A DNA stretch of 64,000 bases, from the IMG/VR virus record IMGVR_UViG_3300024259_001623; one strand, written 5' to 3'. This DNA comes from a virus. Lineage: Duplodnaviria > Caudoviricetes. This document shows, piece after piece, positions 21,429-43,878 of this stretch (positions within the stretch are counted from its first letter, which is position 1; the number at the start of each line of letters is the position of its first letter). Below the pieces are notes generated by a model. It saw only the letters and a program-made list of their open reading frames with translations. It ran no database searches and was not told the DNA's origin. A program made the position numbers and the translations under genes.

Positions 21429-23432
21429 TTAGAATAACGATTCTGGACCTACGCCTCTTTTAGCAGATGCTTTCATATCTTTTCTCAAAGATCCAAATTT
21501 ACTTGCTAACATTTCCGCGAAATCTTGTTTTTTAATTTTTTGACCTTTAGGTAATTTTTTATTAAGTTCTTTAAATTCATCATTAAAGAATCCTGCTTCT
21601 GCCAAAGACCTAATAGCTCCCAGGTCTACCTTGCTAGTATCTGTATTGAATGCTATATCTCTCAAATTATCATACGGAGCATTCTTAGCCAATTCTGTAG
21701 CTGTTTCAATTCCTACGCCTTCACATACAATACTAGGCATTATCTCTGTGAATTCTACTCCAGAGTTTCCGTCTTTCTTCTTAATTATCTTATATTCTAC
21801 TCCACAAGAATTCAATTTCTTAGGAAGAATTTTTATATCAAACTTTTTACAGTCTCTTTCTAATTCCTTAACCTTATCGTACTTCTTACGAGTACTTTCT
21901 ATATTCATATACGCACACATAAATTCATCAGTATAATTCGATTTCAAATATGCCGTCATATAAGAGTCATAAGCATAGCAACATGAGTGAGCCGCATTAA
22001 AACCATAAGCTGCGAATGGAGTAATAAACTTCTCCCAATAATCATCTGCTATTCTTTCAGGTAAGCCTCTTTCCACGGCACCTTTAATAAACAAACCTTT
22101 ATACTTATCAATAAGATTTTGTTTCTTCTTACCAATACCCTTAATTAATACATATCCATCCGTTTCAGAGAAACCTGCTAGTTCTTTACAAATTTGCATA
22201 ACCTGTTCTTGGAAAACTAACACTCCATAGGTCTTATCTAAAATATGCTTGACGTGCTTCTCGATAACTGGATGGAAAAAGTCTACTGTCTTAAAACCCT
22301 TTTTCCTAGCACAATATTCTGGAATCGAAACCATAGGCCCAGGTCTATATAGTGCAATAGCGGCCATAATATCATTAAAACAATCGACTTCGATTTCTTG
22401 TATAGTCTCTTGCATCCCTCTATTTTCACACTGGAAAATACCTGTCAGCTTACCGCTCTTATACAGATCAAAAGTATTCTTATCATCTAGAGGCAAATTT
22501 TTGATATCTATATCTATATCATAATTTTGTTTAACCATCTCGACTGTCTTTTTAATAACAGATAATGTACTGATAGCCAATATATCAAATTTTATAAGTC
22601 CCATACTCTCAAGGTCTTCATTTGGGAATTGAGTAGCAAAACCCTTATTAGAAGTTCTCAAAGGAGCAATCGTATGCAATGGAACATTAGAAATAACTAC
22701 ACCAGCAGCATGAACTCCAAAATTAGAAACAATACCTTCTATAAGTTTTGCATGATTTCTAAAACCTTTTTCCTCGAATTTATCTATATACGCTTTGAAA
22801 TCTGAACAATACTTATAAGCATCTTCGATAGTCTTTATTTTATGCTCAACGCCATCTTCATCGGCTACTTTAAGAATAGCTCCGATCTGTCTTGGCAAAG
22901 AAGCAACTATCTCAGATACTTTAGCTTCATTTTCGCTTTTATTCTCTTTGCTACCTTTGAAAAATGCATTTGCTACATCAAGTGCCTTACCGATTCTACG
23001 TATTGCAGATTTTAATTTAAGACCACCATAAGTTCCGATATTGCCGACATTTTCTCTACCGTATTTGTCAATAATATAGTCATATATTTCTTGTCTACGG
23101 AAATATTCAAAATCACTATCAATATCTGGGAAACCTGCTCTAGCGAATGCTCTTCTTTTGAGCAAAAATTCCCCATCAGGGAATTTAGCAGTCATTCCTA
23201 TATAATAAGCAGTAATACTGTTAATGGCATTGTTCTTGCCTTTTCTTTTATTCTTTTTCTTTTTCTTTTTTCTTCTTTCCCATGTGTCGTAGAATCCCTC
23301 TAATAGACTACGACCGTCAAGGCCGTCCTCTACTTCCATAAAATCTAATTCACTATCTATTTGTTTCAGTGCGCTTTCGTCAGCACCCTGAACCTCAGAA
23401 AGAATTTGTTTTCTAATTTCTTCTATTTGCAT
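21429..23432 (-). CDS. dnaE: DNA polymerase III alpha, catalytic half (palm/thumb/fingers/HhH; no PHP, no OB fold)
   Basis: PDIDSDF, HAAGVVI, KFDILAIST, GIFQCE, ALYRPGP, TYGVLVFQEQVMQI, YGFNAAHS. Confidence 0.93.
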   Translation of the reverse strand: MQIEEIRKQILSEVQGADESALKQIDSELDFMEVEDGLDGRSLLEGFYDTWERRKKKKKKNKRKGKNNAINSITAYYIGMTAKFPDGEFLLKRRAFARAGFPDIDSDFEYFRRQEIYDYIIDKYGRENVGNIGTYGGLKLKSAIRRIGKALDVANAFFKGSKENKSENEAKVSEIVASLPRQIGAILKVADEDGVEHKIKTIEDAYKYCSDFKAYIDKFEEKGFRNHAKLIEGIVSNFGVHAAGVVISNVPLHTIAPLRTSNKGFATQFPNEDLESMGLIKFDILAISTLSVIKKTVEMVKQNYDIDIDIKNLPLDDKNTFDLYKSGKLTGIFQCENRGMQETIQEIEVDCFNDIMAAIALYRPGPMVSIPEYCARKKGFKTVDFFHPVIEKHVKHILDKTYGVLVFQEQVMQICKELAGFSETDGYVLIKGIGKKKQNLIDKYKGLFIKGAVERGLPERIADDYWEKFITPFAAYGFNAAHSCCYAYDSYMTAYLKSNYTDEFMCAYMNIESTRKKYDKVKELERDCKKFDIKILPKKLNSCGVEYKIIKKKDGNSGVEFTEIMPSIVCEGVGIETATELAKNAPYDNLRDIAFNTDTSKVDLGAIRSLAEAGFFNDEFKELNKKLPKGQKIKKQDFAEMLASKFGSLRKDMKASAKRGVGPESLF

Positions 23433-24434: not shown

Positions 24435-27095
24435 TTAATAACGATCAACTCCGCCAAGGTCATCGTCAACTTCTCTTTCTTCATCTATATCATTATCAAA
24501 AACATCCACTGATACATCTTCATCTTCATCATCAAAGAAATCAGAATCTTTTATGAAGTATTTCGTGTCAAATCCCAAGAACCTTTCCCAGATAAGGTCA
24601 TAATCCAGAGGATCGACTCCATAACATATATCTAAACAATGCAATAGAACGCTTGCATAACCTGAATTATGAACTACAAAAGAAGATGTTAAATAATTAG
24701 ATTCATTTTCTACAGTCAAATCATAAACTTCTTTTATATTTTCAACTTCTGCTATACTTCTAACTTTTAATAATATCCCATTATCAACCTGTTTATACGT
24801 AAATTTTTTATTGTTTTCTATATAGATAGTTTTTGGAGAAACGATAACATAACTATTTTTTGCATTTCTAAATGCTTCTCTTTTATCGATTCTTTCATAC
24901 AAACTCAAAGAAGAAGGCACACCAATTTTTCTATAAATATATCTGATTTGATTAGCCAACTTTTTAGAAACTGTTGTATAACTCAACTTATATTTACTTA
25001 ATGATCCATCTCCATCATGCAACCCAATTAATAAAGATTTTATTTTTTCATAATTATTTTCTTTTATAAATAGCTCTGGTATATATTTAGAAGAAGCGCA
25101 AAAATTATAATCTTTAAACATTTTTTTAAATAATGCATATATGAATTTACTTTTTATATATACCTGAATTAAATTTTTGCTTACATGTTTGTTTATGTAT
25201 ATACTAAAATTATATTTATCAAAATAATTTATAATCTTGTATATTTGATCTTCTTCATTACTATTAAAAGCGAATGCTATATAACTCTTATCTCTTCGTG
25301 TAATCCAGCCATCAGATATAAACTTACCTACAACATAAAAAAAATCATCATCAAATGATATATATCTATCATGCACTAAATCACTCAATATATTCTTTTT
25401 ATTCATAGGATTTAATCTCATAGAATGAACTTGATGTTTATCACATACCATATCACTATTATTTTGAAATTCACCAAAATCTATAAATTTGTTATTATTC
25501 TGCTTAAAATTCTCTTTGACATAAGGGACAAAAACCCAATCTCCAACTTCTAAATCTTTTGCATTAATCCAGCACATATGATTACCTGTTGGATCTTTAT
25601 ATCTTTTCATGCGTTTTTTACAAGAATCACTATATTTCTCCCATCCATCTGGTCTTACTAGTTTTTCAACCAAGATTTTATGATCTTTGGTAACAGTTAC
25701 CCCACACGAATCTCCATAATAACATTTGATATTTAAAAGCGTTTCATCTTTAATATTATATTTATGTTTTTTCACAACTTTTTGTTTTTTACCGCTTAAA
25801 GATATAACATTATCTCCTTCCTTAATATCTTTAATTTTTTTTGTTTCCCCCTCTCCCATTACAATACCAACATCACCTGACAAACATCCTCTACCTGGAC
25901 CTGTCAAAATATCAGAATCATTTGCAAATTTCATTATATCTTCTTCGATCAGAAAATATGTTGCAAAATCATATCCATTATTTTCCCAAGCGACTCTAAC
26001 ATCTTTCAACTCTTTTTTCAACGTTGCTACGTGGTCAGGACTTTTATCCCATCCTCTTTTCTTCATACCATCCATAGCTTTTTTCTTCATATATTCGTAT
26101 GAGCCTTCAAACTCTCCCATATCCGCATATTCTTTTGGTATCTCTATATTAGGCAATCTCATACCGCCAAATAGATTCTTGGTTATATCTTCTGTATCTA
26201 TTCGGTCTGACAAAGCAACAGTGTTCCTTAAACATTCTGGAGAAAATCTAAATATCTTTGCCATTTCCTCTGCACTTTTAAGATAGAACTCTTCATACGG
26301 ATGCTTTAAATGCTTTGGATTTGTGATACAATTAGATGTTGACATGCACATAAGAACTTCATGAGATTTTGCGTGTTCTTTTAAAAGATAATGACAATCA
26401 TTTGTCGCTATGACTGGAATGTCCATTTCTTTTCCTAGCTTGAAAATCTCTGGAAGAATAAGAGCTTCTTTATCTATACCATGATACATTGCCTCAAGGA
26501 AAAAATCTTCTCCAAAAATATCTTTTAATATACCGCAAATATCTTTTGCACTATCATATCTATCATAAAGAAGATTAGCATTGATTGCACTAGATAAGCA
26601 AGCGCTGCCTATGATTAAGCCCTCAGAATGCTTCTCTAACAGTTCTAAATCTATTCTAGGGGTGAAATAGAATCCATCAACCCAAGACTTCTCAGACAGA
26701 GTACACAGGTTCTCATACCCTTTATAGTTTTTCGCCCATATATTTAAATGCCTATTACCCTTCTGCCCATCAGGCTGATCGTCTTTGCTTTTATATTCCA
26801 TCTTTCTAGATAAATATACTTCACATCCCAAAATGGGCTTAATTGGTTTATATGGAATGTCATCTCCGTTCTTATCTTTAGTAGCAGAGCATTCTTTGAT
26901 AAACTTGATCCAAGAACCTATAGTTCCATGATCTGTTATAGCCAATGCCGGAAATTCCATTTCCCTTGCCTTTAAGACCAGCTTCTTTAGCTGAGACAAT
27001 CCATCAAACTGGCTAAATTCAGAATGACAATGTGCGTGAACAAAATCACTGTTTTTGAACTTCATATTTTTCCTTCTATGTTTGTTACTGTTCAA
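24435..27095 (-). CDS. dnaE: DNA polymerase III alpha, N-terminal half (PHP domain), intein-containing; probable start 27065
   Basis: HAHCHSEFS, ITDHG, GCEVY, TNDCHY, GPGRG-[intein]-SG, VDPLDYDLIWERFL then acidic tail; lacks PDxD. Confidence 0.92.
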   Translation of the reverse strand: MNSNKHRRKNMKFKNSDFVHAHCHSEFSQFDGLSQLKKLVLKAREMEFPALAITDHGTIGSWIKFIKECSATKDKNGDDIPYKPIKPILGCEVYLSRKMEYKSKDDQPDGQKGNRHLNIWAKNYKGYENLCTLSEKSWVDGFYFTPRIDLELLEKHSEGLIIGSACLSSAINANLLYDRYDSAKDICGILKDIFGEDFFLEAMYHGIDKEALILPEIFKLGKEMDIPVIATNDCHYLLKEHAKSHEVLMCMSTSNCITNPKHLKHPYEEFYLKSAEEMAKIFRFSPECLRNTVALSDRIDTEDITKNLFGGMRLPNIEIPKEYADMGEFEGSYEYMKKKAMDGMKKRGWDKSPDHVATLKKELKDVRVAWENNGYDFATYFLIEEDIMKFANDSDILTGPGRGCLSGDVGIVMGEGETKKIKDIKEGDNVISLSGKKQKVVKKHKYNIKDETLLNIKCYYGDSCGVTVTKDHKILVEKLVRPDGWEKYSDSCKKRMKRYKDPTGNHMCWINAKDLEVGDWVFVPYVKENFKQNNNKFIDFGEFQNNSDMVCDKHQVHSMRLNPMNKKNILSDLVHDRYISFDDDFFYVVGKFISDGWITRRDKSYIAFAFNSNEEDQIYKIINYFDKYNFSIYINKHVSKNLIQVYIKSKFIYALFKKMFKDYNFCASSKYIPELFIKENNYEKIKSLLIGLHDGDGSLSKYKLSYTTVSKKLANQIRYIYRKIGVPSSLSLYERIDKREAFRNAKNSYVIVSPKTIYIENNKKFTYKQVDNGILLKVRSIAEVENIKEVYDLTVENESNYLTSSFVVHNSGYASVLLHCLDICYGVDPLDYDLIWERFLGFDTKYFIKDSDFFDDEDEDVSVDVFDNDIDEEREVDDDLGGVDRY
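24666..25886 (-). mobile_element. Contiguous intein (407 aa) with in-frame LAGLIDADG endonuclease in dnaE N-half
   Basis: Starts CLSGD after GPGRG, block B VTKDH, LAGLIDADG-like GKFISDG and GLHDGDG, ends FVVHN with Ser+1. Confidence 0.93.
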
Positions 27096-35496: not shown

Positions 35497-36591
35497 TTAA
35501 ATATCTATGCCTATCTCTCCACTTTTCCCGACTTTGGTATCATCTCCATTTGCAGGGACACATCTATCTGTTGCCCAATCTCTCATTTCATCGAAATCTT
35601 CTTTTCTCATTGCATACAATGGCTTAAAAGTACCAGCAGCAGTTACAAGATCTTCTGTTTTAATCTCTCTTGCATTATCTCCAAAAGCCTCAAACATGGC
35701 AGTAATGATGCATTTTTCTATTTCCGCACCGCTATAATTTTCTGTAACAGAAGATAATTTGCCAAGATTAAAATCTTTAGGCTTTCTGTTATATCTTCTC
35801 AACAATACTTCAAAAATCTCTCTTCTTTCTTTTGGATTAGGAAGATCAACAAAGAACGTTTCATCAAATCTGCCTGCTCTCATAAATTCTGGGGGGATAG
35901 CCTCATGATCATTTGCAGTACAGAACATAAAGACTGGTGCGGTTTTTTCTTGCATCCAAGTCAAGAACGTTGACACTACTCTACTCGTCGTTCCGCCATC
36001 AGTCTGTCCACTCGATTTTGCTCCAGCTAATCCCTTTTCAATTTCATCACACCATAAAACACAAGGTGCAATCGCTTCTGCTAATTTGATAGCATTTCTG
36101 GAAGCTTCTTCTGATTCTCCTACGTAAGAACCAAACAACTTGCCAAAATCCAATCTCAATAAAGGCATCTGATATAAATCTGCAACAACCTTAGCACATA
36201 AAGACTTTCCCGTATTATGAGAAACAATTCCATTAGAGTAATACTTATGACTTTCGCTTAAAACCTCCAAGTCATAAGTATTATACTTTTCAGATAAAAA
36301 TTCCTTAGTAACAATTTCCACAAATCCATTATCTGTTTCTACCAAATCCTCATTAACAGATAATTGTTCTAAAGACTGCCATCCATTTTTTGTATTAACA
36401 CAATGATCACTGGAGCATTTTAAAACTCTACCATCAGATAATGTCAAACAATAACACTCCTTATTACCCTTATTTACCAAACTACCTATTTTTTGCCACC
36501 CATCAGGCGTATCTATTTCGAACTCGCCTTCTTCTTGAGAAAGTTTAAAAAAATCCTCAATCGCCATTTCTTGTTCGTCATAAAGTTCCAT
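35497..36591 (-). CDS. Ycf46-like AAA ATPase C-terminal fragment fused to C-intein
   Basis: 126-aa intein C-part ending SHN, then TGKSL, GSYVGESE, LWCDEIEK, TAN, RAGRFDE. Confidence 0.92.
   Translation of the reverse strand: MELYDEQEMAIEDFFKLSQEEGEFEIDTPDGWQKIGSLVNKGNKECYCLTLSDGRVLKCSSDHCVNTKNGWQSLEQLSVNEDLVETDNGFVEIVTKEFLSEKYNTYDLEVLSESHKYYSNGIVSHNTGKSLCAKVVADLYQMPLLRLDFGKLFGSYVGESEEASRNAIKLAEAIAPCVLWCDEIEKGLAGAKSSGQTDGGTTSRVVSTFLTWMQEKTAPVFMFCTANDHEAIPPEFMRAGRFDETFFVDLPNPKERREIFEVLLRRYNRKPKDFNLGKLSSVTENYSGAEIEKCIITAMFEAFGDNAREIKTEDLVTAAGTFKPLYAMRKEDFDEMRDWATDRCVPANGDDTKVGKSGEIGIDI
36214..36591 (-). mobile_element. Split intein C-fragment (126 aa, Thr+1)
   Basis: IDTPDGW, block B CSSDH, block F TYDLEV, block G NGIVSHN followed by T. 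Confidence 0.9.
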
Positions 36592-36595
36592 TTTT

Positions 36596-37528
36596 TTACT
36601 CCTTCAATAAAAATTCCTTAATAAACACATCATCCCACTTTTTTATGAACTTAATTTTCCCATCAAGATATAAACCCTTCAGTTGTTCAGGAGGCATAAT
36701 TTTTACATCAATAATTCGATATTCCATATCATTATCTTTACAAAAAATTTTAGCAGCCTCAACCTTTCTTCTATTATTATCTGTAAACATTAATTTTTTA
36801 GGTTTTATTTCTAATAGCAAACTCTCTTCAATTATAAAATCTGGTCTATATGTTCTACTTCTACCTTTAAAATCTATATATGGAATATTTATTGCCCCCT
36901 CAGCACTTCTCCATTTCAAATTATTTTTTTCAATTACATTAATCATATATGACAACTCACGTAATGATCTAAAATACCAATTATTATACCATCCAGACCA
37001 CCCCCCTCCAGAACCTTTAGGAGAAGGCTTGCCATACATGGGATTATTTTTTCCAGACATTTTTTTAGACTTTATTTCTGCTATCTCTTTTTTTCTATTA
37101 TCTGCATAATTTTTTCCATATTTTGCAACCCAAATATCATATACACTTTTTCCATACATAGGATTATTCTTACCAGAAGTTACATTTGACATTGTTTCCC
37201 TAAAACTGTCTTTTTGTGTATAAGACCTATCCAAACTCTTTAATTTATCTATTGTCTCTCTTGTATGTCTTTTTCCATAAAAAGGATTATTTTCCCCCAT
37301 ATATTTCTTTTTATGTCTATCTGATAATGCATTATACTGTTTTTTCCCCTCATCCGTTAATGCGTACAACTTAAGAGAACAAGACAAACAGGGCTTATTA
37401 CTTCTTATCGCTCTTCTTTTTCCCTTTTCTGTTGTATATGATATCACCTTTTTACACTTAGGACACTCTCTTGTAAACTTTTTTTCCATAGCGATAGTCT
37501 CTCCTATTGGGCATTCCTGGAATCGCAC
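36596..37528 (-). mobile_element. Free-standing homing endonuclease: NUMOD3 repeats plus PD-(D/E)XK (TnsA-N-like) domain; probable start 37489
   Basis: GENNPFYGKRH, GKNNPMYGK twice, FRS..E, YRPDFII...LEIKP; AGGAG RBS before ATG 37489. Confidence 0.82.
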
Positions 37529-37532
37529 TATT

Positions 37533-38549
37533 CTATTTCTTATATATTTTTAATTTTCCTTTATTAGAAATTTTTCTTACTTTTATTTTTGTTTCAGGAA
37601 AAACACAACCAGGCATCCCAATTGTCATAACTCCTTTAGGAAAAGGCAACCCATATTTAGAAGCTTCAGAACTGAATCCAACCTTTCTTCTTTCTAGCCA
37701 AGTCATCATATTTTTAAGACCACCGACATCCTTGACAGAGAATTTAGGTTCAAAGAACTCTAAAATACCTTTCTTCCTGATAGTCTGCTGCTTTTCTTTC
37801 AAAATACAATTTATATCAAACTTATTGTGAACAACAATGGATTTAGAAAATGCCATTTGAGCATCTACCAGTGTCAATCCATTAGCAGCCTTTACAATTT
37901 CATCTTCATTTTTCTTAGTCTCTTTAGGAAGATTAGGCAACTTATTTTGAGACTGTATTGCATTAACCAATGACCACAAAGCATTTTTTATCTCATTCTC
38001 GTTAGGATATGGAAAATCCAAAACTGATACTATATCTTCTGTAGCAGGCGTAGTAACAAAGAATGGACCTGTCATAACAACATGAGTCATAGACTCAATA
38101 TCAGCAAACGCCTTCAATCTTCTTTCCAAATCCGGTGGAGCATCATCTAAATACCTATGAAAATCTAAAAGGATATATATATTACCAGAAATCCCTTCGT
38201 CTCTGAAATTCTTTATATTAGCTTCATCCTGCTTGGCACTAGATATAATATGTTCAAGAGCGACCAAGGGATCAGTCAAATCCTCAGAAACTCCAACAGC
38301 TTCCTTTTCTGTTATAAGATCCAATAACCCGTTATAGCAATCCCATATAAAAACTTTATAACCTCTTACGGCAGCAAGATGCCTGAAATAAACTTTCAAT
38401 CTCTGCTCTTCCACGCAGGTCAGATAAACCAAAGGAGCGCGACTTCTTAATAGAGCAAGAATATCATTAGTAAAATCTTCTGTTGCCATTGAGTCTAAAG
38501 CTTTTTGATGCTCTTGATCCAACGTTGATGCTTCTTTTTTCTTAGCCAT
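37533..38549 (-). CDS. Ycf46-like AAA ATPase N-terminal fragment fused to 24-aa N-intein
   Basis: LLRSRAPLVY..C.EE.R, ILLDFH, DVGGLKN...WL, PKGVMTIGMPG then CVFPET. Confidence 0.9.
   Translation of the reverse strand: MAKKKEASTLDQEHQKALDSMATEDFTNDILALLRSRAPLVYLTCVEEQRLKVYFRHLAAVRGYKVFIWDCYNGLLDLITEKEAVGVSEDLTDPLVALEHIISSAKQDEANIKNFRDEGISGNIYILLDFHRYLDDAPPDLERRLKAFADIESMTHVVMTGPFFVTTPATEDIVSVLDFPYPNENEIKNALWSLVNAIQSQNKLPNLPKETKKNEDEIVKAANGLTLVDAQMAFSKSIVVHNKFDINCILKEKQQTIRKKGILEFFEPKFSVKDVGGLKNMMTWLERRKVGFSSEASKYGLPFPKGVMTIGMPGCVFPETKIKVRKISNKGKLKIYKK
37536..37607 (-). mobile_element. Split intein N-fragment (24 aa)
   Basis: CVFPETKIKVRKISNKGKLKIYKK: block A start directly after Walker A residues GMPG. 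Confidence 0.85.
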
Positions 38550-38584: not shown

Positions 38585-39109
38585 TTAAGTCTTAGACACG
38601 TTAGGCAACAACACAGTAGAGATCGTAGAACCTGACATAGAAGGAGCGCTCCATGTGGCGATCTCCGAAAACGGGCTAACAAACTCCTTGAACCTAACCA
38701 TAGCTTCGTCCGACATACTTCTATTTCTTCCCTTTAGTCTCAAAACATACAAAACTTTGTATCCCTTGTCTAGGAATTGTCTTGCCTTTTTATTTTTGAC
38801 TTGCAAATCATGATCGCTTATATTCAAGCCATTAGAAGAGCCATGACCAATGCGTATTTCTTTAGTAACGCTGACATGATGATTCTTTTTTTTGTTTTTC
38901 CCTTCTTTGTACTTCATCTTGCCATAATCAATAATTTTGCATACTGGATTACTTCTATCTTGAGAAAATTGAACTAAATTCAACCCCTCTTCCTCAGCCA
39001 TATTGATAGCGACTTGCTTATCGACTATACCAACATTTTCTCCACTAGACGAAATCAATCTTACGGATTTGCTTTCGATCTGATAATCCACCTTCTTGTT
39101 TTGGACCAT
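38585..39109 (-). CDS. infC: Translation initiation factor IF-3
   Basis: VRLI...G..VG......A...A....L.LV......PVCKIIDYGK.KY, KEIRI, ISDHDL..K...ARQFL.KG.KV, KGR. Confidence 0.92.
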   Translation of the reverse strand: MVQNKKVDYQIESKSVRLISSSGENVGIVDKQVAINMAEEEGLNLVQFSQDRSNPVCKIIDYGKMKYKEGKNKKKNHHVSVTKEIRIGHGSSNGLNISDHDLQVKNKKARQFLDKGYKVLYVLRLKGRNRSMSDEAMVRFKEFVSPFSEIATWSAPSMSGSTISTVLLPNVSKT

Positions 39110-41121: not shown

Positions 41122-43878
41122 TTATTCTTCTTGTAATTCTTTGATATTAAACTGAGGTTCAGTCTTGTAAATTCTTTTACGAGTATCAGAATGCTTTGTA
41201 AGATATTCACAGTGGTCCTTGAAATCTATAACCAGAGCAGATTCCTTTTTGTAATCGCCGCTCGTAAATGGCCTGAGAACTCGCCCAACCCTCTGTAAGG
41301 CCCTCGTTTTGCTTTTACCACCGCCAGCTAGTATTAACGTGTCTAGGGGCCTACAATCGACTCCTTCATCGAATATAGAGGTAGCTATAGTTATCGCAGC
41401 ATCCCTATCTCTATTTCTCATCTTAGATAGATGGGCTTTTCGCTGCTTCCCAGAATGGACTCCATGCAAAAATGTACTTCCATCTATCATTTCACTTAAT
41501 AAATTACCATGATTAACTTGCTGGCATAATATCAAAATATTTTTACCATTTTCTTCAAAAGATTTAGCCATATTGGCAATATATTCATTTCTAACAGAAT
41601 TTTCTACTATTCCCTGTTTATAATAAGACTGGTAATTAAACAACTTACCAGGCATCCCTTTTCTAATAGGAACAAAATAAATATCGGGCTTGACGAGATA
41701 ACCTCTTTCGATCAAAAAAGAAGCTGATACATTTGCTATTTCTCTTCCGAAACAGGCATCGATTAATATATCATCTCCCTTGTCTCGCATAGGAGTCGCT
41801 GACATACCATACCTATATCTTGCATTACTAGAATAATCAGATATAACTTGACATGTATCTGATGCCCAATGCTGACAATTATGAACTAAAATATCATTAG
41901 CAAAAAAACAATGAGTGTCTTCAACTGTTATGTCATAAACATTATCTGATCCGCAATCTTCGATACTACTTATGCCAACGTAATTTGTATTCCATGTGTT
42001 TAGAGATGTGGTCTTTAACAACTCCGTAGATATTTCCTCTTGCTTCTTTCGATATATACAAGACATAATATTTTTTTTTGTATTTATGGATTGTTGATTT
42101 TCCATATTTGGCATTAAACCAATCAGCGCACAATTCGACTTCTGGTAAAGAAAATCCTTCTGTATGTAATCGTAGGCTATTATGAGTTGCTGAACCATCA
42201 TCTCCGATCCACCAAGCCAAGCCAACAGGTCCGATGAGATCAAGCCACTCTTTATTGACTCGTTTTTTACCATCTTTATATACAATCTTATAAATTCCAG
42301 AAAAACATGACGAACAAGGTGTATAACAAGAAATTGTGGTATCTCCATACCCGCCATTCGGGGATATATAATATTTAGGAGATAATCTGTCAAGAAAATC
42401 TGCCTTATACTTTGCCCAACCTTCTTGACATAACCCATGATTGTACACCAATCTTGGAGTTTTACTTCTTTGTGAAGGAAATGATAAACAAGAATCTCCC
42501 AAAAGTGTGCCAAAAATTGCTTGTGATTCTTTTTTAAGTAATGACAATCCCCACAAGTTATTCCTTTTATCATGTCCATAAATGTATTTTCTGTATTTTT
42601 TTGCCCCTTTATTTTTAATAAATGATTCCAATGATGTATATTTTGGCCGCACTTTTCCTCCGCAGCCGCATTTACATTTCGGAGCATTCTCGACAAACTC
42701 TTGGAAAACTTTTTTCCAATCCTCATTAGATCTTTTTCTGATTTGATGACCGAGGATATACTTTGGGTATCTACTCGGGCTTCGACCAAAGACTTCAATT
42801 TTTCCTCCGCAACCACATCTGCACATGACAAAATCTTGTCTGTTTTTTTTATGTCTCCTGCTTGAACCCATCCTTTCTGCGTTTTTATTAAATGATTTTT
42901 TGTACATTTTATATATCTACCTGAATCTAATACTATTTTAATAATAGAGTGTCTACCCTTATACATAAAATTAGTTATTTTCTTCCATACAACACTAGTT
43001 CCATCAAAACTAAGTATATCCTCTCCAATAAAATTAGAAAGTTCTGACATTTTTTTTCTACCACTTCTTGTGACAACTATAGAATCACCAGTTATGCATT
43101 CATCAGCAATGAATCCCTTTGAAGACATAATAATATCTAAAATGTCTTTACGCCTTTCAGATAAAATATTCTTCTCTGCTTTACTAATTTTCTTTGTTTT
43201 ATCTTCTTCGTCAAATCTGACGTATTTTTTACCACAAGCCAAAACAGCAGTTTGGATTGTCATAATAGTTATATCTTGAACATCAAATTTTCCACCACCG
43301 ACTATACCAACCTTAATAGGAATATTATTATAACGCAAAAACTTTTCAAACTCTTCTTTTGTTTGAGTTAAAAGATCTACAGATGGCACATAAAAAATAA
43401 ATGGAGATATTCCTAGTTCTGCAATAAGACCAGCAGCAATAGAAGTTTTTCCACCACCAGTGGCTACTTTGATAATGCCCCTTTGCATTTTAGAAGCTTG
43501 ATGTATAATAGTCTGCTGATAGTCTCTTGTTTCAAAATCATTAGACATATTCAATGATATATTTTTTGCTACAGGTTCTCTCTCATCGAATATGTCAAAT
43601 GGAACAGAATTTTTTACAAAATGATCTCTAGCTTTATTAAAAAGACCAGTTGGGAAATGCGTTCCATCCTTTTTTATTGCACATTTACAATATTTTTTGC
43701 AATAACAAAGGGTAGACTCTATGCCGTCCCATTTTGCATCGGAGCCTCTGACTTGAAAAATGGCCCCTTCTGGACGGTATCCTAAAAGTTTTCTCAAACC
43801 CTGATAAACATCAGAATCTAATCTTCCCTGAATATAAGTCTTTGTATTGGTTACTAATAATTTTATTTTATTTTTCAT
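41122..43878 (-). CDS. SF2 DExH helicase (UvsW/XPB/RadD-like), intein-containing
   Basis: RDYQ, ATGGGKT, ADE-[intein]-CQH, SATP, ATSIFDEGVD, QRVGRVLR. Confidence 0.92.
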   Translation of the reverse strand: MKNKIKLLVTNTKTYIQGRLDSDVYQGLRKLLGYRPEGAIFQVRGSDAKWDGIESTLCYCKKYCKCAIKKDGTHFPTGLFNKARDHFVKNSVPFDIFDEREPVAKNISLNMSNDFETRDYQQTIIHQASKMQRGIIKVATGGGKTSIAAGLIAELGISPFIFYVPSVDLLTQTKEEFEKFLRYNNIPIKVGIVGGGKFDVQDITIMTIQTAVLACGKKYVRFDEEDKTKKISKAEKNILSERRKDILDIIMSSKGFIADECITGDSIVVTRSGRKKMSELSNFIGEDILSFDGTSVVWKKITNFMYKGRHSIIKIVLDSGRYIKCTKNHLIKTQKGWVQAGDIKKTDKILSCADVVAEEKLKSLVEARVDTQSISSVIKSEKDLMRIGKKFSKSLSRMLRNVNAAAEEKCGQNIHHWNHLLKIKGQKNTENTFMDMIKGITCGDCHYLKKNHKQFLAHFWEILVYHFLHKEVKLQDWCTIMGYVKKVGQSIRQIFLTDYLLNIIYPRMAGMEIPQFLVIHLVRHVFLEFIRLYIKMVKNESIKSGLISSDLLAWLGGSEMMVQQLIIAYDYIQKDFLYQKSNCALIGLMPNMENQQSINTKKNIMSCIYRKKQEEISTELLKTTSLNTWNTNYVGISSIEDCGSDNVYDITVEDTHCFFANDILVHNCQHWASDTCQVISDYSSNARYRYGMSATPMRDKGDDILIDACFGREIANVSASFLIERGYLVKPDIYFVPIRKGMPGKLFNYQSYYKQGIVENSVRNEYIANMAKSFEENGKNILILCQQVNHGNLLSEMIDGSTFLHGVHSGKQRKAHLSKMRNRDRDAAITIATSIFDEGVDCRPLDTLILAGGGKSKTRALQRVGRVLRPFTSGDYKKESALVIDFKDHCEYLTKHSDTRKRIYKTEPQFNIKELQEE
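41878..43098 (-). mobile_element. Intein (407 aa) inserted in helicase motif II
   Basis: CITGDS start, block B KCTKNH, block F VYDITVED, block G NDILVHN, Cys+1; central about 290 aa has no endonuclease motifs in this frame. Confidence 0.92.
41966..42907 (-). mobile_element. LAGLIDADG homing endonuclease nested in an alternative frame inside the helicase intein
   Basis: Same strand, -1 frame; CxCGCG twice, IFGTLLGDSCL, L.P.GLAWWIGDDGS, LHTEGFS. Confidence 0.88.

What the first reader, a model, noticed from the sequence alone, without database searches (positions are those of the whole stretch)
35497..38549. Atypically split trans-splicing intein reconstitutes the Walker A of a Ycf46-like AAA ATPase
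The N-gene ends GMPG|CVFPETKIKVRKISNKGKLKIYKK* (24-aa, strongly basic IntN). The C-gene begins with a 126-aa IntC whose start is acidic (MELYDEQEMAIEDFF...EEGEFE) and ends SHN|TGKS. Splicing restores GMPGTGKS and a 552-aa ATPase. Very short IntN fragments are rare (AceL-TerL type), and Thr+1 and an AAA host are unusual. This is a candidate new protein-ligation tool and a possible post-translational switch.
Basis: partly seen in the sequence, partly recalled or inferred. Interest (0 to 1): 0.86.

Follow-up and report, generated by a model that had tools for sequence, protein, structure and literature searches.

The report
Lopsided split intein in phage ATPase
A marine phage encodes an ATPase as two genes, cut inside its ATP-binding loop by a self-splicing protein element split into a 24-residue and a 126-residue piece, with a selfish nuclease gene between them; the element is real and useful to protein chemists, but its kind is known and turns out to be common in metagenomes.

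Summary
The N-gene (37533-38549, minus strand) ends GMPG|C plus a 24-aa basic IntN. The C-gene (35497-36591) starts with a 126-aa IntC ending SHN|TGKS. Joining the exteins gives a 552-aa Ycf46-like AAA ATPase that aligns without gaps to intein-free homologues.

This finding's text left out the third part. A 297-aa free-standing homing endonuclease gene (zinc ribbon, three NUMOD3 motifs, TnsA-like PD-(D/E)xK nuclease) fills the gap. The locus is therefore a "fractured gene" in the sense of Dassa et al. 2009.

The closest characterised relative is VidaL, not AceL-TerL. The split lies before helix alpha-1 (S1 type). All catalytic residues are conserved across 53 related C-halves and 14 N-halves, and a complex model supports docking (0.63; best control 0.02).

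Relatives show the nuclease gene present, decayed or absent, and two copies in which the intein is one chain.

Thr+1 and an ATPase host are not unusual. A profile search finds hundreds of related inteins, many split the same way in P-loops. This scan has also reported several such inteins on other DNA.

Verdict: a real, probably active atypically split intein, and a new member of a known kind. I found no evidence for a regulatory switch.

The parts
37608..38549 (-). N-extein: residues 1-314 of the AAA ATPase (N-terminal domain and the first half of Walker A, ...GMPG)
   Evidence: ORF. phrog_8638 positions 16-316. tblastn coordinates. Gapless alignment of the spliced product to intein-free P0054.
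37536..37607 (-). IntN: 24 codons (CVFPETKIKVRKISNKGKLKIYKK), followed by the stop TAG at 37533-37535
   Evidence: Cys1 is invariant and the TKI.IKKIS.EGK pattern is conserved in 14 N-halves of 24-26 aa. Residues 317-338 dock on IntC in the complex model. It forms a beta-hairpin in the AF2 model of the fused relative L039.
37490..37532 (-). 43-nt spacer with the Shine-Dalgarno AGGAG (37501-37505) of the endonuclease gene
   Evidence: Read from the sequence. In relatives L001, L002, L003 and L018 the matching spacer folds into a hairpin that sequesters the SD and start codon (z -3.0 to -4.8). In the window itself it does not (z -0.33).
36596..37489 (-). Free-standing homing endonuclease gene, 297 aa from ATG 37489 (an upstream GTG at 37528 would give 310 aa). 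Domains: N-terminal CxxC...CxxC zinc ribbon, three NUMOD3 motifs, C-terminal PD-(D/E)xK nuclease.
   Evidence: Pfam NUMOD3 4.1e-13 and Tn7_TnsA-like_N 8.5e-8. phrog_15427 endonuclease. D217, E227 and K229 are invariant in the A5 alignment (five full homologues plus the L039 remnant). Only the NUMOD3 region matches SegC/I-TevI-type homing endonucleases of cultured phages. The AF2 model's best PDB matches are weak and to TnsA.
36599..36604 (-). Shine-Dalgarno AAGGAG of the C-gene, embedded in the last two codons (K-E) of the endonuclease gene, 7 nt upstream of the IntC ATG
   Evidence: Read from the sequence.
36214..36591 (-). IntC: 126 codons. Acidic N-terminus, helix alpha-1 (IEDFFKL), block B (S60-x-x-H63), block F (D107), block G (S124-H125-N126).
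   Evidence: phmmer against PDB: VidaL 6vgv 1.5e-12, then gp41-1, Npu DnaB and CatC. Pfam Intein_splicing 5.1e-6, which is below the gathering score. Invariant catalytic columns in 35 homologues.
35497..36213 (-). C-extein: 238 codons plus stop. It starts with Thr+1 of TGKS (rest of Walker A), then Walker B, the AAA core and the lid.
   Evidence: Pfam AAA 2.8e-23 and AAA_lid_3 8.4e-8. phrog_8638 positions 315-544.

Best explanation
This is a fractured gene. A phage Ycf46-like AAA ATPase gene is interrupted in its Walker A codons by a class-1 intein of the VidaL clade. That intein is itself broken, in the loop between its first beta-hairpin and helix alpha-1, by a free-standing homing endonuclease gene.

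**Inferred mechanism.**
- The three genes are probably transcribed together. Each has its own ribosome-binding site.
- The basic 24-aa IntN tail of the N-half docks as a beta-hairpin onto the acidic N-terminal part of the 126-aa IntC.
- Docking completes the HINT fold. Cys1, the block B Ser/His, the block F Asp, His125-Asn126 and Thr+1 then carry out standard protein splicing.
- The result is a covalent 552-aa ATPase with an intact GMPGTGKS loop.
- Splicing is needed for function, because a P-loop cannot work across two chains.

The endonuclease is a selfish passenger. It most likely spreads the element to alleles that lack it.

**Shown:** the anatomy, homology, residue conservation, recurrence in independent samples and predicted docking. 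**Inferred:** splicing activity, co-transcription and homing.
For: - Exteins fit one family end to end.
- The IntC is homologous to solved inteins, with VidaL the best match.
- Cys1, S60, H63, D107, S124, H125 and N126 are invariant, and +1 is always C, T or S, across 35-53 C-halves and 14 N-halves at 41-65% identity.
- Charge complementarity holds across the family: IntN 0 to +10, IntC first 30 aa -1 to -11.
- Complex model: ipSAE 0.63, best of 3 controls 0.02. This mark was reached by 51 of 78 solved complexes and 2 of 108 mismatched pairs. Run agreement is at least 66% and partner pLDDT at least 51. A pass may partly reflect memory of solved split inteins.
- AF2 model of the naturally fused relative L039: pLDDT 81.8, with the IntN hairpin docked. 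Its Foldseek top hit is VidaL at E 1.5e-9, TM 0.85.
- The same synteny recurs in IMG/VR loci L001-L005, L018 and L029: IF3, N-half, [endonuclease], C-half, a 257-aa gene, DnaB.
- The arrangement is present in independent assemblies and runs.
- No Rfam family, and so no intron, in the region.
Against: - No biochemical or proteomic evidence of splicing exists for this or any family member.
- Pfam's intein model scores below its gathering cut-off on the IntC alone (26.8 against 35.8 bits).
- No RNA run holding the locus was found, so expression is untested.
- IntN residues 3-4 (F-P) differ from the family consensus (L-G), though these positions vary within the family.
- The complex test can pass from resemblance to solved split inteins.
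Confidence: 0.85

Rival explanations
1. The intein fragments no longer splice. The two halves only associate non-covalently through the intein remnants, as in the fragmented NrdA of phage Aeh1, or the gene is simply dead.
For: Such a case is documented for a homing-endonuclease-fractured RNR gene (abstract of PMC3045599, listed). No splicing data exist here. One relative (L039) has GIPR instead of GxPG at the -1 side, which may mark decay.
Against: Every catalytic residue is kept in the window and is invariant across dozens of diverged homologues, which non-splicing remnants would not need. The break lies inside the P-loop itself, which cannot bind ATP as two chains. Both exteins are well conserved (59-65% identity to intein-free homologues).
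Confidence: 0.07
2. Splicing is conditional and serves the phage as a post-translational switch of ATPase activity.
For: Conditional protein splicing is documented for other P-loop inteins (RadA, PMC4513877; mycobacterial DnaB, PMC6195587, PMC7360933). A nearly invariant Cys59 sits next to block B and aligns with a Cys in VidaL. It could in principle form a redox-sensitive disulfide with Cys1. This is an inference only.
Against: Nothing in the locus points to regulation. Close homologues work without any intein (P0054, P0055). The element shows the gain and decay pattern of a selfish homing element. The same intein clade sits in many unrelated P-loop proteins.
Confidence: 0.1
3. It is an artefact, or the join is made at the RNA level: an assembly error, a group I/II intron carrying the endonuclease ORF, or translational bypass joining the two ORFs.
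For: Endonuclease ORFs of the same general kind do occur in group I introns (PMC2677866).
Against: The identical arrangement is in contigs from several independent assemblies and runs, with single contigs spanning both junctions. There is no Rfam hit at E<=1. The sequences flanking the endonuclease gene encode conserved intein blocks under protein-level constraint. Homologous loci with the endonuclease gene absent or decayed (L004, L029) are still split by a stop codon and a new start.
Confidence: 0.02

Closest known systems
VidaL split intein (PDB 6vgv/6vgw; natural IntN 16 aa; cited in PMC13014065)
   Same: It is the best sequence match of the IntC (E 1.5e-12, aligned from IntC residue 5 to the end). 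It is also the best structural match of the fused relative's model (E 1.5e-9, TM 0.85). Both are Cys1-dependent. Both are split before helix alpha-1 (S1 position), leaving a short IntN and an IntC of about 125 aa. The crystallised VidaL chain ends SH-A-SGK, which is a P-loop-like C-extein.
   Different: The IntN is 24 aa rather than 16, with a longer and strongly basic hairpin. The host protein and the +1 residue differ (Thr here, Ser in the solved chain). The sequences are clearly diverged; Foldseek gives 21% identity for the relative's model. VidaL is biochemically characterised and this intein is not.
Fractured genes of Dassa, London, Stoddard, Schueler-Furman & Pietrokovski 2009 (PMC2677866)
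   Same: A phage gene is split into two co-oriented ORFs by a split intein with a free-standing homing endonuclease gene between the halves. Hairpins lie upstream of the endonuclease gene (seen in relatives). Variants without the endonuclease also occur.
   Different: In that study every locus except the terminase was broken at the canonical endonuclease-domain site; here the break is near the N-terminus. The endonucleases there were GIY-YIG or Vsr-like. Here the nuclease is a NUMOD3 plus TnsA-like PD-(D/E)xK protein. This AAA ATPase is not named as a host in the passages I read: the terms 'ATPase' and 'AAA' have 0 occurrences in that paper.
AceL-TerL / GOS-TerL / Cat atypically split terminase inteins
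   Same: They are natural split inteins with short IntN (25-37 aa) and long IntC (about 104 aa), found in phage genes from metagenomes. CatC is a weaker PDB hit (5.6e-5).
   Different: They are split after helix alpha-1 (S2 position, PMC13014065), so alpha-1 belongs to IntN. Here alpha-1 (IEDFFKL) is in IntC. The host is the terminase, not an AAA ATPase.
PolB16 OarG intein (PMC10189870)
   Same: S1-type natural atypical split with a short IntN (15 aa).
   Different: It is cysteine-less (Ser1/Ser+1), its host is PolB, its IntC is 168 aa, and it is a far weaker structural match (8cpo, rank 45).

Membership tests
Class-1 intein (HINT splicing domain) | Nucleophile (Cys/Ser) as the first intein residue, directly after the N-extein | tested here: met
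   Cys315 follows GMPG. It is invariant in 14 N-halves.
Class-1 intein (HINT splicing domain) | Block B T/S-x-x-H, block F Asp, block G penultimate His plus terminal Asn, and a +1 Cys/Ser/Thr | tested here: met
   S60, H63, D107, S124, H125 and N126 are invariant in 35 sequences. +1 is C in 27, T in 24 and S in 2. The window has Thr.
Class-1 intein (HINT splicing domain) | HINT fold | tested here: met
   phmmer of the window's IntC hits 26 solved intein chains. The AF2 model of the fused relative L039 (pLDDT 81.8) has 60 PDB matches at E<=0.001, and the top-ranked ones are inteins or HINT domains. The window's own pair was modelled only as a complex.
Class-1 intein (HINT splicing domain) | Removal of the element restores a contiguous, conserved host protein | tested here: met
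   A 552-aa product, with a gapless 543-residue alignment to intein-free P0054. Fits phrog_8638.
Class-1 intein (HINT splicing domain) | Demonstrated protein splicing | not testable with these tools
   Needs expression and SDS-PAGE/MS.
Naturally split intein in a fractured gene (Dassa 2009) | Two separate co-oriented ORFs carrying the intein halves, with a free-standing homing endonuclease ORF between them | tested here: met
   Stop TAG after IntN, the endonuclease ORF 36596-37489, and the IntC's own ATG and SD. The same layout occurs in L001-L003, L005 and L018.
Atypically split intein, S1 type (VidaL, PolB16) | Short IntN (15-37 aa in known natural cases), with the break after the first beta-hairpin and before helix alpha-1 | tested here: met
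   The IntN is 24 aa. In the AF2 model of L039 the IntN forms strands 12-19 and 26-29, and the IntC part starts before helix 63-71. The IntC aligns to VidaL from its residue 5. Site nomenclature from PMC13014065.
Atypically split intein, S2 type (AceL-TerL, GOS-TerL) | Break after helix alpha-1, so that alpha-1 lies in IntN | tested here: not met
   Helix alpha-1 is encoded in the C-gene (IntC residues about 9-17).
Ycf46-like AAA ATPase (host protein) | An N-terminal domain of about 280 aa plus one classical AAA module and lid; resemblance to proteins named Ycf46 | tested here: met
   Pfam AAA and AAA_lid_3. For the intein-free homologue P0054, the ESM Atlas nearest clusters are named ycf46 (feature score 0.99; structure TM 0.83-0.85 over about 500 residues). 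There is no curated Ycf46 model, and NCBIfam gives only sub-threshold PAN/CDC48/FtsH hits. Function is unknown.
PD-(D/E)xK homing endonuclease with NUMOD3 DNA-binding motifs (middle ORF) | NUMOD3 motifs plus a restriction-endonuclease-like core with a D...E-x-K catalytic triad | tested here: met
   Pfam NUMOD3 4.1e-13 and TnsA-like_N 8.5e-8. D217, E227 and K229 are invariant. The fold matches are weak, with TnsA best at probability 0.98, E 0.027. Cleavage activity and target were not tested.
Vsr-like (EDxHD, I-Bth0305I) homing endonucleases of fractured genes | Vsr-type catalytic core | tested here: inconclusive
   I-Bth0305I (3r3p) and Vsr (1vsr) appear only at ranks 35-47 with E>0.5. No sequence hit in PDB. 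The motif here is the classical D...ExK, not the Vsr His-based site.

The most novel reading that the evidence does not exclude
This intein family records a full life cycle of a homing endonuclease gene at a non-canonical place inside an intein. The stages seen are invasion (window, L001-L003, L018), decay to a 3' remnant (L029), near-clean loss with the intein left split (L004), and re-fusion of the two halves into one chain through an in-frame remnant or linker (L039, P0186). If so, intein splitting would be reversible in nature.

The family also offers 50 or more natural variants of a peptide-sized (24-aa), strongly charged IntN that accept Cys, Thr or Ser at +1. Some of these could be fast ligation tools orthogonal to VidaL and Cat.
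Probability: 0.3. Interest if true: 0.6.

Novelty: new member of a known kind. Interest (0 to 1): 0.4.

Why it matters
**Practical value.** Natural split inteins with an N-piece short enough for peptide synthesis are prized for protein semisynthesis. Only four natural families are named as characterised in the papers read here: AceL TerL, GOS TerL, VidaL and PolB16 (PMC13014065). This locus adds a well-conserved fifth candidate, with native Thr+1 and dozens of natural variants to screen.

**Biological value.** The locus and its relatives show plainly how a free-standing nuclease gene can break an intein at an unusual place. They also show that such lopsided inteins are common in the P-loops of phage ATPases, even though the literature calls them rare. 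No new mechanism is involved.

Tried and rejected
- **AceL-TerL type:** rejected. Helix alpha-1 is in IntC, and VidaL is the far better match.
- **Cis inteins of L030/L073:** these GC-rich phages have a 280-aa intein with an HNH domain at the same GPPG|..|TGKS site. I considered them as ancestors of the split form. They share only weak block F/G similarity (E 0.014-0.06), so I treat them as a different intein lineage at the same site.
- **IntN tails in alignments:** two MAFFT runs that included the short N-half tails misplaced them and were discarded. The structure was predicted from an alignment without them.
- **IntN alone against PDB:** no hit.
- **Rfam scan of the region:** nothing.
- **Whole genome:** not held for this window.
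- **Promoter and terminator scan:** not above chance, 15 against 15.5 and 2 against 1.4.
- **Regulatory hairpin upstream of the endonuclease gene:** significant in four relatives but not in the window.
- **HEG-less variants in the same population:** laying contigs of four runs gave no joints. Contigs drop rare variants, so this is not evidence of absence.
- **Papers not held:** the Burton 2020, Bachmann 2015 and Stevens 2018 look-ups found no held paper. VidaL's host gene therefore stays unverified.
- **Endonuclease fold search in PDB:** only weak PD-(D/E)xK matches.
Full report
**1. What is in the sequence**

Three tightly packed ORFs lie on the minus strand.
- The N-gene (37533-38549, 338 aa) ends ...GVMTIGMPG followed by CVFPETKIKVRKISNKGKLKIYKK and a TAG stop.
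- After a 43-nt spacer comes an ORF of 297 aa from ATG 37489. An upstream GTG at 37528 would give 310 aa. Homologues start MEK(K/E)F, and an AGGAG precedes the ATG.
- Four bases after its stop comes the C-gene (35497-36591, 364 aa). It starts MELYDEQEMAIEDFF..., and residues 124-130 read SHN-TGKS.
- The C-gene's Shine-Dalgarno AAGGAG lies in the last two codons of the middle ORF.

**2. The two outer genes are halves of one protein**

- PHROG family phrog_8638 (568 positions) matches the N-gene on positions 16-316 and the C-gene on 315-544.
- In cultured phages, such as the mycobacteriophage Corndog cluster and Rhodobacter phages, the homologue is a single gene annotated AAA-ATPase.
- Metagenomes hold many intein-free homologues of 550-555 aa whose Walker A reads GxxG[C/T/A..]GKS.
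- The conceptual spliced product aligns with P0054 at 64.6% identity over 543 residues without a gap.
- The host is a classical AAA module plus lid behind an N-terminal domain of about 280 aa.
- For P0054 the ESM Atlas returns clusters named 'ycf46', with feature score 0.99 and structure TM 0.83-0.85. The label 'Ycf46-like' therefore holds.
- The function remains unknown. NCBIfam gives only sub-threshold PAN/CDC48/FtsH-type hits.
- The gene sits among replication genes: a phage IF3 homologue upstream, and a 257-aa gene, DnaB and a DnaG zinc-finger gene downstream.

**3. The intervening pieces are an intein**

- The IntC hits 26 solved intein chains. VidaL is best (6vgv, E 1.5e-12, aligned from IntC residue 5 to the end), followed by gp41-1, Npu DnaB and the consensus atypical CatC.
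- In an alignment of 35 homologous C-halves (49-65% identity to the window's), the invariant columns include S60 and H63 (block B), D107 (block F) and S124-H125-N126 (block G).
- The +1 residue is Cys in 27, Thr in 24 and Ser in 2 of 53.
- Fourteen N-halves end in a 24-26-aa tail with invariant Cys1 and the pattern CV...TKI.IKKIS.EGK..I.
- Charge complementarity is a family property. IntN net charge runs from 0 to +10, and the first 30 IntC residues run from -1 to -11.

Two models support docking.
- A two-chain model of IntC(1-140) with N-gene(300-338) scored ipSAE 0.63, against 0.02 for the best of three controls. That mark was reached by 51 of 78 solved complexes and 2 of 108 mismatched pairs. 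The runs agree in at least 66% of contacts, and the partner pLDDT is at least 51.
- In that model IntN residues 317-338 pair with IntC residues 1-15, 21-27 and 34-42. Split inteins have been solved, so part of this pass may be memory. It shows likeness, not proof of binding.
- An AF2 model of a naturally fused relative (L039; pLDDT 81.8) shows the IntN as a beta-hairpin (strands 12-19 and 26-29) docked on the HINT core. The IntC portion begins just before helix alpha-1. Its best PDB match is VidaL (E 1.5e-9, TM 0.85).

By the nomenclature quoted in PMC13014065 this is an S1-type split, like VidaL and PolB16. It is not the S2 type of AceL-TerL and GOS-TerL, where alpha-1 belongs to IntN.

**4. 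The middle ORF explains the split**

It is a free-standing homing-endonuclease-type gene.
- It has an N-terminal CxxC...CxxC zinc ribbon and three NUMOD3 motifs (Pfam 4.1e-13).
- It has a C-terminal TnsA-like PD-(D/E)xK nuclease (Pfam 8.5e-8), with D217, E227 and K229 invariant in the A5 alignment of five full homologues plus the L039 remnant.
- Only the NUMOD3 part resembles SegC/I-TevI-type endonucleases of cultured phages.
- The modelled nuclease domain gives only weak PDB matches, TnsA best.

The locus is thus a 'fractured gene' as defined by Dassa et al. 2009 (PMC2677866). It differs in two ways. The break is not at the canonical endonuclease-domain site; in that paper only the terminase locus broke elsewhere. 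The nuclease is neither GIY-YIG nor clearly Vsr-like.

**5. Relatives show the element in several states**

- *Endonuclease gene present:* the window, L001, L002, L003/L005 and L018.
- *Still split, spacer is a remnant:* L029. Its 141-nt spacer is a remnant of the endonuclease gene's 3' end (tblastn E 7.5e-5).
- *Still split, short spacer:* L004. It has a 52-nt spacer whose last 12 bases before the IntC ATG equal those before the endonuclease ATG of L002.
- *One chain:* in L039, IntN, a 23-aa in-frame remnant of the nuclease core (YSPDFIVDGKVLVEVKPK against YRPDFIIEESLLLEIKPK) and IntC form a single ORF.
- *One chain, another host:* P0186, from another AAA host, has IntN, a 15-aa linker and IntC, with the internal Met kept.
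- *Fused endonuclease:* in P0185 and P0179 the endonuclease is fused in frame to the IntC.

Caveat on L039: it is a single contig, and its Walker A reads GIPR, which may mark decay or an error.

Four of the endonuclease-bearing relatives have a strong hairpin that buries the endonuclease's SD and start codon (z -3.0 to -4.8). The window's copy does not (z -0.33).

The same host family has a second intein site just before Walker B (APC|...HN|CILWIDE). It is occupied by mini, maxi or canonically split inteins in L018, L022, L029, L032, L039 and L062 and in several metagenome proteins.

**6. Artefact and RNA-level alternatives**

- The identical C-half protein was read on 16 contigs from JGI, ENA and Logan seawater assemblies. 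The 8 places shown have the same gene order as far as each contig reaches.
- In two further runs, single contigs of 2523 nt and 1457 nt span both junctions without a difference, and no joints were seen.
- Rfam finds no intron or other RNA family.
- The flanks of the middle ORF are conserved as protein.
- No RNA run holding the locus was found, so expression is untested.

**7. How unusual is it?**

The papers read here name four characterised natural families with short IntN: AceL TerL at 25 aa, GOS TerL at 37, VidaL at 16 and PolB16 at 15 (PMC13014065, PMC10189870, PMC11766414). None of the papers I could search reports this AAA ATPase as a host.

- Cys1/Thr+1 occurs in about 12% of inteins (PMC11766414).
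- About 70% of inteins sit in ATP-binding proteins, and the P-loop is a classic site that includes AAA+ hosts such as MCM, RFC and Lon (PMC4760082, PMC5050341).

A profile of the IntC searched against 1.84 billion representatives found 5122 proteins at E<=1e-3 and 709 at E<=1e-10. Of the best 150:
- 46 carry the full IntC at their very N-terminus, that is, split in the same way;
- 34 of those continue with [C/S/T]GK[S/T] in hosts of many lengths;
- 40 more carry a shorter N-terminal match;
- 64 have it internally.

This scan has also reported several atypically split P-loop inteins on other DNA: another AAA+ ATPase, gp46, UvsX, UvsW, Mre11-Rad50 and ClpC. I did not check those reports. The kind is therefore rare in the literature but common in phage metagenomes.

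**8. Verdict**

This is a real and most likely active atypically split intein in a fractured phage gene. It is a new member of a known kind, with VidaL as the closest characterised relative. Its value is practical and illustrative: a peptide-sized IntN, native Thr+1, many natural variants, and a clear series of endonuclease gain, decay and possible re-fusion. It is not conceptual. I found no evidence for a regulatory switch. The only lead is the nearly invariant Cys59 next to block B, which aligns with a Cys in VidaL.

Noticed in passing
window 41122-43878 (-) and nested ORF 41966-42907 (-): A 918-aa SF2 helicase (ResIII/DEAD, Helicase_C) carries a cis intein (Pfam Intein_splicing, residues 273-667). 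A 313-aa ORF in another frame inside it matches LAGLIDADG_2 (4.7e-27). This agrees with a first-stage note about an out-of-frame endonuclease. How it is expressed was not studied.
   Followed up: partly
window 24435-27095 (-) and 21429-23432 (-): The upstream DnaE ORF (886 aa) has PHP, the start of DNA_pol3_alpha, then Hint, LAGLIDADG_3 and Intein_splicing hits up to residue 810. So it does contain an intein. The downstream ORF carries the rest of DNA_pol3_alpha and the finger domain. A first-stage note called this split 'with no split intein'. That should be rechecked.
   Followed up: partly
L001:4027-4110, L002:4080-4140, L003:4060-4125, L018:3815-3885: Upstream of the endonuclease gene, four related loci have a strong hairpin that pairs the region just after the N-gene stop with the endonuclease's SD and start codon (z -3.0 to -4.8). 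It looks like translational repression of the selfish gene. The window's own spacer has lost it (z -0.33).
   Followed up: partly
L039:1929-5618: In one relative the Walker A intein is fused into a single chain through a 23-aa in-frame remnant of the nuclease core. A second intein at the Walker B site appears broken at the canonical place, with a 295-aa Cys-rich ORF between its halves. That ORF has an HNH-like C-terminus by eye and no Pfam hit. The Walker A reads GIPR, so the gene may be decaying.
   Followed up: partly
L018, L022, L029, L032, L062; proteins P0006, P0022, P0024, P0032, P0037, P0048: The same ATPase family has a second intein insertion site directly before Walker B (APC|...HN|CILWIDE). 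It is filled by mini-inteins of about 165 aa or by larger inteins of 430-450 aa. Some genes carry both inteins.
   Followed up: partly
proteins P0185, P0179 (metagenome representatives): The TnsA-like/NUMOD3 endonuclease runs in frame, with no stop, into an IntC of this family followed by another AAA-type extein. This is a half-integrated state, or possibly a gene-calling artefact.
   Followed up: no
L030:2374-4914, L073:3294-5861: GC-rich phage contigs carry a 280-aa cis intein with an HNH_3 domain at exactly the same GPPG|..|TGKS site of the homologous ATPase. It is only weakly similar to the split intein, so the site has been invaded by at least two intein lineages.
   Followed up: partly
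window 38585-39109 (-): The phage encodes a full translation initiation factor IF3 homologue (IF3_N 2.5e-23, IF3_C 8.4e-14) directly upstream of the fractured ATPase. The neighbourhood is conserved in related loci.
   Followed up: no
IntC residue 59 (window about 36415-36417): A Cys directly before the block B Ser is at least 90% conserved in the family and aligns with a Cys in VidaL. Its role (structural, or a redox partner of Cys1) is unknown.
   Followed up: no
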